Numbered from the stretch's first letter, positions 9,001-12,000 are shown. The stretch is DNA of 64,000 bases from Candidatus Aminicenantales bacterium (GCA_049515535.1 JBEKTZ010000009.1:62001-126000), one strand, 5' to 3'. Made by a program: the numbers.

Positions 9001-12000
9001 GGAGACCTCGTTGATGATCTCCTGGAGAAGGCTGAACGGAAGGAGCGTCTTGGGAACGCCTTCCGCGGGCTGGGCGGCCGCGAATCGGGCGGCGCAGAAT
9101 ATGAGGAACGATGCGATGATGATCTTTTTCATGGCGCCTCCTAAGCCCTCTATTCTATAAGATTGAAAAAATATGTAAATACTCCATATCGTAGCTCCAT
9201 GACCCATGGACATGTCCCCGAAACTGTACTACGGTCAGGCATCGAGACGATTGAAAAAAAAGCATATTTCATCTAGAGTAAAACTTTATGGCCTGACGGA
9301 TTCCTTTTAAGGAGGGCCGGCCCATGAGCATGACGACCTCGGCAACGATCATCTTGGCGGCGATGGTCGCGGCCTACATCGTCGCGAAGATCTTCAAGAT
9401 TTCGACCGAGCTCTCGATGCTCGGCGCCGCCCTCGTCGGCGGACTCGTCGGAGGGGCGGGCATCCCGGCCCGCCACATCGCGGAAGGGGCGTTTACCTAT
9501 CTCGACATCTGCTTGATCTTCATCACCGCCACTCTCTTCATGAATCTCCTCAAGGAATCCGGCGGCGTGGCGTTCGTCATCCGACGCATCCTGCGGCGGT
9601 TCCATCGCCGCAAGTTCCTGCTCTTCGTCATGTTGGCCGTGCTCATGCTGATTCCAGGGATGCTCACGGGCGCGGGAAGCGTGACCGTCCTGATCGTCGG
9701 CGGCATGGTCGCGACCGTCCTCGGCTATATGGGAATTCCCAAGCCGAAGGCCGCGGCGATCGTCTTCGTCATCGCCGGGTTGAGCGCCGCCGCGCCCCCC
9801 GTCAGTCTTTGGGCGATGCTCACGGCGGCCGGCGTCAACATGCCTTATGTGGGATTCTTCCTGCCCCTGATGATCCCCTGCCTCCTGTTGGCGCTGCTGA
9901 CGATCTTCATCCTGGGATGGAAATCCAAGCCGGCGGATCTCGCCTCGGCCTTGAAAGAGCTGCCCGAACCCCCGGCCGGCATGAACTGGCTGAAAATCGC
10001 GATTCCCTTTCTTGGCTTTTTCGCCCTCATCATCGCCGGGCGCGTCTGGCCGTTCGACTTCCCGATCATGGGCTTGCCCCTGATGTTCGCCTGCTCCGCG
10101 GTTTTTACCCTCGTTTTATCGCCGGTCAAGATCGACGTTCTCGAGGTCTCCAGAAAAACGATCCACCAGCTCCTGCCGCTGATCGGAACGCTGACCTGCG
10201 CCGGCATCCTGGTCCAGATCATGACGCTGACGGGCGTCCGCGGCCTGATCTCCGTGACGGTCGTCACGCTCCCGGTCATGATCGTCATCCTGACCCTTTT
10301 CCTGACGCTGCCCGTTTCCGAATCCGTGCTCATGTGGGGCGCGGCCCCGGTGCTCGGCGTGCCGCTCGTCCTGCTCTTCAACCACATCAACCTCAACCCC
10401 ATCATCGCCCTGGCGGGCATGAGCGTCATCTGGCCGCTGGGCGACGCGCTTCCGCCGACGGCCATCATCGGCCGGCTGACCGTGGAAACCGTCGGGATGA
10501 AAGAAAAATATACGGCCTTCCTGAAATACTGCATCGTTCCGGCGATCCTCATCATCATCGTCGGGACGCTGATGGTCGTCTTCAGCAAGAAGTTGGCTTT
10601 TTTAACGGTCTTTTAAGGGGAAACGACGATGATCATTACCATCCTTTATTATATCCTGATCGCGTTCGTGGTCTTCCTGATGGGTTGGAACCTCGTCAAA
10701 AGCAAAAAATGGCAGGAGGAAATACTCTACGTGATCGTCCTTCTCCCGTTTTTGCTGCGGCTGCTGCGCTTGAAATAGGAGAAGCATTATGAACGCGCGC
10801 AAAACCGTCATCATCGTCCTGGGCCTCGTTCTCGCCGGCTTTTCCGGACTGAGCTTTTACAAGAGCCGCCGTCTCCGGGAGCCCGTCGTGATCGGCCCGT
10901 CCGTCACCAGGGTCGAGAAGCTCAGCGAATATTTCCCGGCCATCAAAGGCAGCGCGAACGACGCCAACGTCTATGTCCTCGAAGGCGCGAAAAAAGGCGG
11001 CACGTTCCTCATCCTCGGCGGATCGCATCCTGAGGAGCCGGCAGGGCGCCTCGTCACCTGGATCCTGACCGAAAACGCGGTCCTGGAACAAGGCCGGATC
11101 TTCGTTCTGAACTCGGCCGGCCGGAGCGCGACGACCGTCACGCGCCCTGGCGGAGCCTATCCGGAATCATACACGATCAAGACGCCCTGGGGAGGGCAGA
11201 CGTTCAGGATGGGAGACCGGTGGGCGAACCCCCTGGACCAGTGGCCCGATCCCGAAGTCTATATCCACTACCCGACACGCCAGAATCTGGCCTACATGGA
11301 TATCCGGAACCTGAACCGGGCCTGGCCCGGACGCCGAAACGGCACCCTCACGGAAAAGACGTGCTATGCCCTGACCGCGCTCATCAACAAGGAAAACGTG
11401 GACGTCGTCATCGACCTCCACGAAGCCGAGCTCCAGTATCCCGTCATCAGCACGATCGTCGCCCACGAGAAGGGCCTCGAAATCGCGGCCATGGCCTCCA
11501 TGGTTCTCAGCGACGAGGAGTTCAAGATCGGGATGGAGAAATCGCCCCCGGAGCTGCGCGGGCTTTCCCACCGCGAAATCGGCGACCATACGAAGGCCAT
11601 CCCGCTCCTGTTCGAGACTCCAGAGCCGTTCCTCGACGCGACGCGCGGACGGACGGACGAGAAACTTCTGCTCGAGGGCAAGGACGAATTCGTCGTCAGG
11701 GCCGGAAAACGCGGGCTGCTTTATGAAAAAATCGACGAAAAAGGCTGGCCGATCGACGTCCGCGTCGGACGCCACTGCTCGACCATCATCCAGGTCCTCG
11801 CCGTCTGGTCGCAGGACCATGCAGATAAGGCCGTAACGATGAAAAACGTCCCCAAATACGCGGAGGTCATCCAAAAAGGGACCGGCGCTTTTCTGCGCGA
11901 CCCGGCCAAGGCTGACCCGAAACTCATTTATTTCGAATAATATTCGGGACCGCCCTCAAACAGCGTCCCCGAAACGAAAGGAATATTTTATGCGCACTTA

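What a model noticed while it worked through the whole genome (the two positions that open the first line are those of the whole stretch)
9324..11940. TRAP-like elevator transporter that carries a membrane-anchored zinc carboxypeptidase/deacylase in place of a binding pr [...]
Three paralogous cassettes (C9:71324-73940 g01999-g02001; C2:145798-148441 g00487-g00489; C14:50845-53400 g02534-g02536) each encode a 430-aa polytopic membrane protein (two of the three without Pfam family), a 47-51-aa membrane peptide and a 373-391-aa protein with one N-terminal membrane helix and an M14/AstE-AspA-type zinc hydrolase domain; a DUF6305 gene and exopeptidase genes lie beside each. I read them as a new kind of uptake machine: a DctM/SiaM-like elevator carrier with an exo-hydrolase docked on it through the small peptide, so that cutting an amino acid or organic acid off a peptide or N-acyl compound and carrying it across the membrane are physically coupled (on which face of th [...]
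Evidence so far: Paralogy: all-vs-all blastp. Gene order large-small-hydrolase kept in 67 of 67 loci with enough flank (small ORF seen in 64) from Aminicenantes, Gemmatimonadota and Bacteroidota, membrane protein 65-89% identical. Folds: membrane protein pLDDT 80, best PDB matches include TRAP SiaQM M-subunit 7qha_B (TMq 0.67), IseQM, ArsB, INDY; hydrolase pLDDT 86, matches M14 carboxypeptidases 4b6z, Csd4, aspartoacylase-family 2qj8, EutE/DoeB. H80, E83, H211 (HxxE...H zinc set, named from recall) invariant in 30 sequences. Complex prediction of the three chains: ipSAE 0.91 in 3 of 3 runs, best of 3 controls 0.55 (mark reached by 116 of 157 solved and 2 of 215 mismatched pairs; own alignments, three chains, [...]
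(Added by a program. Inside this text positions count along the whole contig: contig position 62,001 is position 1 of the stretch shown here. "Call 12" and the like, gene names such as g00115 and contig names such as C1 are that model's own, and its searches are not shown. The text may have been shortened before it was handed on; [...] marks where a part breaks off. The agent that wrote the report below was given it as the finding of a first reader that could run no searches.)

Follow-up and report, generated by a model that had tools for sequence, protein, structure and literature searches.

The report
Polyglutamate-linked hydrolase and carrier module
Three adjacent genes for a membrane carrier, a tiny membrane protein and a membrane-anchored zinc peptidase, plus a secreted partner, travel with the genes for making poly-gamma-glutamate in many anaerobic bacteria and most likely cut glutamate off such polymers outside the cell and take it back in.

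Summary
The three genes are real. The order carrier (M), micro-protein (S), zinc hydrolase (H) holds in 162 of 166 copies. M has the TRAP-M/ArsB elevator fold, but this is not a TRAP system: the genome has no DctP, DctQ or TAXI gene, and DUF6305 folds as one Rossmann-like domain, not a two-lobed binding protein. All 25 cassette-bearing genomes among 524 sampled also carry the poly-gamma-glutamate gene pgsW (31 carry it). In Cetobacterium somerae, ggt-DUF6305-M-S-H-pgsB-pgsC-pgsW is one gene run. Natural M-S fusions (4 clusters) make S a likely carrier subunit. Fusions of H to a signal-bearing paralogue place H outside. Best reading (0.55): a gamma-glutamyl polymer salvage module in which H trims C-terminal glutamate and M imports it. 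No paper was found in my searches, but five earlier notes of this scan describe these genes on other DNA, four with this reading.

The parts
9324..10616 (+). M: 430-aa ion-transporter-superfamily elevator carrier (TRAP-M/ArsB-like fold)
   Evidence: DctM hit in 43 of 77 family members; fold of relative P0046 matches IseQM Z 24.5, ArsB Z 24.4, SiaM Z 23.9
10629..10778 (+). S: 49-aa two-helix membrane micro-protein, invariant Y7 and R44
   Evidence: fused to the C-terminus of M in 4 protein clusters
10789..11940 (+). H: 383-aa zinc carboxypeptidase/deacylase (M14, AstE/AspA type) with one N-terminal membrane helix
6238..6906 (+). D: DUF6305 protein with signal-peptide-like N-terminus (likely ATG start at 6307); single Rossmann-like domain; fourth member of the module
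   Evidence: near M in 65 of 80 and 69 of 80 loci
15472..16653 (-). pgsB poly-gamma-glutamate synthase
   Evidence: TIGR04012, 306 bits against cut-off 222.7
15044..15499 (-). pgsC/capC
   Evidence: PF14102
13983..15047 (-). pgsW, poly-gamma-glutamate system protein
   Evidence: TIGR04332, 329 bits against cut-off 100
7051..9213 (-). M28 peptidase, divergent from M; a variable neighbour
   Evidence: 23 of 80 window-type loci, 0 of 80 Cetobacterium-type loci
11990..13327 (+). DUF1015 protein; local neighbour, probably not part of the module
   Evidence: 9 of 80 window-type loci, 0 of 80 Cetobacterium-type loci

Best explanation
A four-gene salvage module for gamma-glutamyl polymers, attached to the pgsBCW type of poly-gamma-glutamate synthase. 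The cell makes and exports the polymer with PgsBCW (inferred from family membership). Exported enzymes encoded alongside (gamma-glutamyltranspeptidase in one branch; C69, M14 or M28 peptidases in the others) shorten it. H, held in the membrane with its zinc site facing outward (inferred from fusions and charge), removes the C-terminal glutamate as an exo-carboxypeptidase (activity class from sequence; acidic preference inferred). M, a cation-coupled elevator carrier (fold shown on a relative; ion and direction inferred), imports the glutamate or a short gamma-glutamyl peptide. S is a scaffold subunit of M in the role DctQ plays in TRAP carriers and probably seats the helix of H (association with M likely, about 0.85; docking of H about 0.6). 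DUF6305 is a secreted accessory anion-binding domain or enzyme, not a classical binding protein.
For: Genome-level: every sampled genome with a cassette marker also has pgsW: 7 of 7 in 201 own-phylum genomes (DUF6305), 5 of 5 in 301 (M), 8 of 8 in 10 (H), 5 of 5 in 12 with an exact match of presence and absence (H). In all, 25 of 25; pgsW occurs in 31 of 524. Locus-level, loci with at least 6 kb on both sides: pgsW in 25 of 30 window-type and 13 of 19 Cetobacterium-type loci; ggt in 19 of 19 of the latter. One co-oriented run ggt-DUF6305-M-S-H-pgsB-pgsC-pgsW in Cetobacterium somerae, and pgsB-pgsC-pgsW-DUF6305-M-S-H-C69 in L050, L059, L067, L078, L080, L112. All three paralogue branches are found next to pgs genes somewhere (L109, L195, L105, L106). 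H keeps H80, E83, R144, N174, R177, H211, E276 in 77 of 77, plus invariant H261 and R262, 15 and 14 residues before E276; a basic residue at position 255, 15 before Glu270, marks acid-specific M14 enzymes (PMC4230590, PMC7706225, passages). Outside: net charge before the helix exceeds that after it in 107 of 145 H N-termini, is equal in 26 and lower in 12; a short M14 paralogue with signal-like N-terminus in 11 of 18 by eye is fused to the C-terminus of H in L158 and L160. M-S fusions of 497 aa in 4 clusters fold with pLDDT 80-88 over S. GGT and the carboxypeptidase-A-like PghP are known polymer-degrading enzymes (PMC4497714, passages). Named hosts include Fusobacterium ulcerans and varium, Clostridium symbiosum, Acetomicrobium and Treponema, amino-acid fermenters (recalled).
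Against: No activity, ligand or expression data. ggt is absent from all 80 window-type loci, and in the window the pgs genes are convergent, not co-transcribed (co-oriented in only 10 of 51 window-type loci with pgsW). The genome has three cassettes but one pgsW, and the C2 copy sits among C69 and M14 peptidases with no pgs gene in 20 kb, so paralogues may take other substrates. K+R counts alone do not favour either face of H (48 more before, 57 equal, 40 more after). The 255 equivalence is by counting, without a structural alignment. ArsB, an exporter, ties with the TRAP M subunits in the fold search, so direction is open. Genomes are related, four of the 25 were chosen as centres because they carry the cassette, and linked genes are inherited together. 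Genome-level co-occurrence was not tested in Bacillota, Spirochaetota, Synergistota or Fusobacteriota, where 6 of 19 well-flanked loci lack pgsW nearby. In L105 other genes separate S from H.
Confidence: 0.55

Rival explanations
1. Accessory machinery of polymer synthesis: the module stands in for the CapA/CapE/CapD functions missing from pgsBCW loci (supplying or exporting glutamate, setting chain length, releasing or anchoring the polymer), with M possibly an exporter.
For: One gene run with pgsBCW in several phyla; ArsB ties for best fold match; S is about the size of CapE (47 aa, recalled).
Against: pgsBCW occurs without the cassette in 6 of 31 pgsW genomes (G100, G197, G298, G306, G354 with no H hit; G512; draft genomes). 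Three cassettes against one synthase in this genome. Neighbours are hydrolases.
Confidence: 0.15
2. Salvage of small gamma-glutamyl compounds (glutathione, gamma-glutamyl amino acids, cell-wall fragments); the synthase genes share the region through common regulation by glutamate.
For: ggt in 19 of 19 well-flanked Cetobacterium-type loci, pgsW in only 13 of 19; a two-component pair in 12 of 19.
Against: 25 of 25 co-occurrence with pgsW, including the branch that lacks ggt.
Confidence: 0.12
3. One reading: an uptake machine for amino or organic acids cut from ordinary peptides or N-acyl compounds, unrelated to polyglutamate.
For: Closest solved sequences of H are deacylases such as DoeB and Mlr6093; C69, M14 and M28 peptidases flank two of three copies here. 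May hold for individual paralogues.
Against: Does not explain the linkage to pgsBCW and ggt across phyla.
Confidence: 0.1
4. H faces the cytoplasm and hydrolyses an imported gamma-glutamyl dipeptide, with DUF6305 oligomers acting as an unusual binding protein outside.
For: K+R counts do not fix the face; DUF6305 is exported and keeps K60, S58, H94, R100, R101 (mature numbering), as a ligand site would.
Against: Net-charge bias and fusion to the exported paralogue; one DUF6305 serves two cassettes in tandem loci.
Confidence: 0.08

Closest known systems
TRAP transporters (SiaPQM, IseQM; TAXI-TRAP)
   Same: M matches the whole M subunit end to end (7qha_B 1-427, Z 23.9, rmsd 3.8, 397 aligned; 9pym_A Z 24.5, rmsd 3.4); a small membrane partner, sometimes fused; RefSeq names M 'TRAP transporter large permease subunit'.
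   Different: No DctP, TAXI or DctQ gene in the genome (94% complete). S has two helices, lies after M and fuses to its C-terminus, whereas Q has four helices, N-in C-in (PMC9971032, passages). A hydrolase and DUF6305 are constant partners.
Bacillus pgsBCAE with PgdS and GGT; B. anthracis capBCADE
   Same: pgsB and pgsC; GGT-family enzyme nearby in one branch; polymer-degrading enzymes next to synthesis genes (PMC4497714, passages).
   Different: Third gene is pgsW (TIGR04332); the carrier, micro-protein, anchored M14 hydrolase and DUF6305 are not part of those loci as described in the passages read.
AstE/AspA family (succinylglutamate desuccinylase, aspartoacylase, DoeB/EutE) and acid-specific M14 enzymes (CCPs, carboxypeptidase O); phage PghP
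   Same: HxxE...H zinc set, N-x-x-R and catalytic Glu; gamma-Glu-Glu resembles N-succinyl-glutamate chemically (my inference).
   Different: N-terminal membrane anchor, a conserved insert at about 135-170, far below the DoeB cut-off (21 against 403 bits); no hit to the PghP Pfam family.
B0AT1 with aminopeptidase N and ACE2 (mammalian gut)
   Same: A membrane-anchored peptidase complexed with a secondary amino-acid carrier, raising apparent affinity up to 2.5-fold (PMC3408045, abstract).
   Different: Unrelated folds; eukaryotic; no micro-protein subunit. A functional analogy only.

Membership tests
TRAP transporter | M subunit with 12-segment elevator fold | tested here: met
   on relative P0046; DctM Pfam in 43 of 77 members but not in the window's M
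TRAP transporter | Cognate DctP- or TAXI-type binding protein | tested here: not met
   no PF03480 or PF16868 in the genome while controls rang; genome 94% complete; none seen in the three cassettes
TRAP transporter | DctQ small subunit (four helices) or fused equivalent | tested here: not met
   no PF04290 in the genome; S is a two-helix 47-54-aa protein
TRAP transporter | Transport strictly dependent on the soluble subunit and on Na+ | not testable with these tools
   needs reconstitution
Periplasmic substrate-binding protein (for DUF6305) | Two-lobed fold matching solved binding proteins | tested here: inconclusive
   model is one 167-residue alpha/beta domain, pLDDT 91.6; top rows are GT-B, PfkB and SGNH domains, best Z 9.7; an oligomer could still bind ligand
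M14 / AstE-AspA zinc hydrolase (for H) | Zinc ligands, substrate-binding Asn/Arg and catalytic Glu | tested here: met
   invariant in 77 of 77; profile hits 2qj8 E 1.8e-11, DoeB E 7e-10; Arg127, Asn144, Arg145, His196, Glu270 roles from PMC7706225, His69/Glu72 recalled
Succinylglutamate desuccinylase or DoeB as an ortholog | Score above the curated equivalog cut-off | tested here: not met
   only NCBIfam hit TIGR02994 at 21.4 bits against 402.7
pgsBCW poly-gamma-glutamate system | pgsB, pgsC and TIGR04332 above cut-off and adjacent | tested here: met
pgsBCW poly-gamma-glutamate system | Polymer actually produced | not testable with these tools
   shown for Fusobacterium nucleatum according to a reference title in PMC4497714; paper not read

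The most novel reading that the evidence does not exclude
An enzyme-operated elevator: M, S and the anchor helix of H form one complex in which S plus that helix rebuild a split DctQ-like scaffold, and the hydrolase sits where a TRAP binding protein docks, so that cleavage of glutamate from an extracellular store of self-made polyglutamate is channelled into, and perhaps required for, transport. This would give pgsBCW polyglutamate the role of a retrievable carbon and nitrogen reserve in anaerobes, like an external cyanophycin.
Probability: 0.3. Interest if true: 0.8.

Novelty: new variant of a known kind. Interest (0 to 1): 0.6.

Why it matters
If right, a widespread set of genes now labelled 'TRAP large permease', 'succinylglutamate desuccinylase' and DUF6305 is mis-annotated and forms the retrieval half of a polyglutamate cycle in gut, sediment and digester anaerobes. 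It would offer a bacterial case of a peptidase built into an elevator carrier, and give a testable reason why non-Bacillus bacteria make polyglutamate. Cultured carriers (Cetobacterium somerae, Clostridium symbiosum, Acetomicrobium) make it directly testable.

Tried and rejected
Complex prediction of M, S, H and DUF6305 with DUF6305 as the scored partner: no verdict (runs 0.43, 0.37, 0.33; control with M replaced 0.30); not used for or against binding. RNA runs: no RNA holder listed. An apparent DUF6305-M fusion in L113 is false, the genes are in different frames; P0104 and P0144 look like chimeric records. An alignment with separate S rows under the M-S fusion misaligned all 42 S rows and was dropped; the fusion was folded with only 4 rows over S. 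The structure aligner gave no placement of S against Q helices. No binding-protein fold among the top 50 rows for DUF6305, no sequence hit in PDB, no Atlas look-alike. The bit-score cut missed S in 16 metagenome loci; the profile recount replaces it. The tree of M was the quick version and is not used for any claim. Promoter scan: two consensus-like sites upstream of M, not evidence of function. Literature: 'DUF6305' 0 papers; 'pgsW' 6 unrelated; searches listed nothing on this module; passages of PMC12940168 and PMC11006615 were not relevant. Subscription papers and supplements were not seen and may mention these genes. The viral collection was not scanned.

Full report
Observation. The window holds three tightly spaced + strand ORFs: M (9324-10616, 430 aa), S (10629-10778, 49 aa) and H (10789-11940, 383 aa), 12 and 10 nt apart. 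A DUF6305 gene is near each. I collected 80 genome loci with the window's M, 80 metagenome loci with an alignment centred on the Cetobacterium type and 18 further regions. With profiles built from 77 matched sets, M is followed by S and H in 162 of 166 copies with enough flank, and S precedes 164 of 167 full-length H. These loci are partly redundant and related, but they span M identities down to 20-35%, so the order is far beyond chance. DUF6305 is present in 65 of 80 and 69 of 80 loci, and in 27 of 30 and 18 of 19 loci with at least 6 kb on both sides.

Two kilobases downstream, convergent, lie pgsB, pgsC and the TIGR04332 gene pgsW. The C14 copy follows a gamma-glutamyltranspeptidase. In Cetobacterium somerae the annotated run is sensor kinase, regulator, ggt, DUF6305, M, S, H, pgsB, pgsC, pgsW on one strand. 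In loci labelled KSB1, Ignavibacteriaceae and Gemmatimonadota it is pgsB-pgsC-pgsW-DUF6305-M-S-H-C69. Among well-flanked loci, pgsW is present in 25 of 30 window-type and 13 of 19 Cetobacterium-type loci, and ggt in 0 of 30 and 19 of 19. In four phylum samples every genome with a cassette marker also had pgsW: 7 of 7 among 201 (DUF6305), 5 of 5 among 301 (M), 8 of 8 among 10 (H) and 5 of 5 among 12 (H). pgsW was found in 31 of the 524; six have it without the cassette. Four of the 25 were sample centres chosen for having the cassette, the markers differ between samples, and kin are not independent. The nesting suggests that the synthase can stand alone while the cassette depends on it.

The carrier. 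The window's M has no family hit, but 43 of 77 relatives hit DctM, 23 CitMHS and 12 DcuC. I folded a relative, P0046 (31-32% identical; pLDDT 90.4). It matches IseQM (Z 24.5, rmsd 3.4, 397 aligned), ArsB (24.4, 3.8, 404), NaCT (23.9) and SiaM (23.9, 3.8, 397, chain 1-427) as a tie. SiaM is N-out C-out with 12 segments (PMC9971032, passages); the positive loops of M fit that topology. The genome has no DctP, DctQ or TAXI hit while controls rang (94% complete), so M is not a TRAP member although it works like an elevator. Direction and coupling ion are not determined.

The micro-protein. S is a helical hairpin with invariant Y7 and R44. P0046 and three other 90%-identity clusters (1, 17, 10 and 1 members) are 497-aa proteins in which S follows M after a proline-rich linker. 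This supports S as a subunit of M with its N-terminus outside; charges of S alone do not settle its orientation. In TRAP carriers Q extends the scaffold so that the elevator works as a monomer (PMC9971032, passages); S may do the same (inference).

The hydrolase. H80, E83, R144, N174, R177, D209, H211, H261, R262 and E276 are invariant in 77 of 77; the profile finds Mlr6093, DoeB and other AstE/AspA structures. H261 and R262 lie 15 and 14 residues before E276. In M14 enzymes residue 255, 15 before Glu270, sets specificity, and Arg there marks acid-cleaving enzymes (PMC4230590, PMC7706225, passages). This equivalence is by counting only. For the face: net charge is higher before the helix in 107 of 145 N-termini, equal in 26, lower in 12, but K+R counts alone are even (48, 57, 40). 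Many Cetobacterium-type loci carry a second, short M14 protein; 11 of 18 have a signal-like or lipobox-like start by eye, 6 have none at the start my script chose and 1 is unclear (one unrelated row, L006, dropped). In L158 and L160, probably relatives, it is fused to the C-terminus of H without a hydrophobic stretch between. I put the outward face at about 0.85.

DUF6305. 117 of 131 N-termini look like signal peptides by a crude rule. The mature protein folds as one alpha/beta domain (pLDDT 91.6) whose best matches are generic Rossmann-like domains (Z 9.7 or less). Conserved S, K, H and R residues at strand ends suggest an anion site. Tandem double cassettes share one copy, so it is less strictly stoichiometric than S and H. 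My one complex job, with DUF6305 as partner, gave no verdict.

Mechanism. Shown: gene order, linkage, folds, catalytic residues, fusions. Inferred: polymer made by PgsBCW is shortened outside by GGT, which removes units from the N-terminal end (PMC4497714, passages), or by C69, M14 or M28 enzymes; H trims glutamate from the C-terminal end at the membrane; M with S imports it. Confidence 0.55. Rivals are a synthesis accessory or exporter (0.15), salvage of small gamma-glutamyl compounds (0.12), generic peptide or N-acyl scavenging (0.10, may hold for single paralogues such as C2) and a cytoplasmic H (0.08).

Novelty. Searches found no paper on DUF6305 or pgsW or on this module; the library lacks most subscription papers, including the Fusobacterium nucleatum polyglutamate paper, of which I saw only the reference title, and I read no supplements. 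A peptidase-carrier complex is known in mammals (PMC3408045, abstract). Five earlier notes of this scan cover the same genes in other genomes; four read them as I do, and one calls the neighbours of pgsBCW bystanders, which the cross-phylum runs and the 25 of 25 nesting contradict for H. I had formed the reading before looking (note). New here are the M-S and H-paralogue fusions, the DUF6305 fold, and the genome-level nesting. Verdict: a real, undescribed variant of a multi-component elevator carrier tied to polyglutamate; interest 0.6.

Noticed in passing
L156, L158, L160, L167, L170, L171, L177, L178, L187: Tandem double cassettes: a second, divergent M-S-H (M 25-30% identical to the Cetobacterium type) sharing one DUF6305, suggesting two substrates or two stereoisomers.
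   Followed up: partly
L083:9197-11099 and 26 of 80 Cetobacterium-type loci: A two-component pair whose kinase has a large membrane-embedded sensor region travels with the operon; a candidate sensor of glutamate or gamma-glutamyl compounds.
   Followed up: no
L138:13005-15915; L196:5531-7519: A fused TRAP-type permease of about 650 aa (TAXI-like by appearance, not scanned) lies directly after pgsW or divergent from the cassette; if it carries glutamate, M may carry something else.
   Followed up: no
P0076, P0106: M relatives with one extra C-terminal hydrophobic helix, possibly a remnant of S; context unknown.
   Followed up: no
L105: M-S and H are separated by two other genes, and H lies next to DUF6305 and ggt; L141 and L195 have an extra full-length H without S.
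   Followed up: partly
window 16763-17900 (-): HTH plus SocA/Panacea antitoxin-like gene followed by a 125-aa ORF, both of lower GC than the neighbours; likely a toxin-antitoxin pair inserted upstream of pgsB.
   Followed up: no
window 13431-13979 (-): 182-aa ORF without Pfam or NCBIfam hit directly after pgsW.
   Followed up: no
window 4174-4998 (-): PTS EIIA domain fused to a C4 zinc ribbon.
   Followed up: no
G198:C14:8194-9048: pgsW match with one in-frame TAG; the cassette in this genome lies on another contig.
   Followed up: no
L007, L012, L014 and similar loci: Records titled 'uncultured Eubacteriales' carry Aminicenantes-like gene sets (70-84% identity); the labels may not reflect the lineage.
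   Followed up: no
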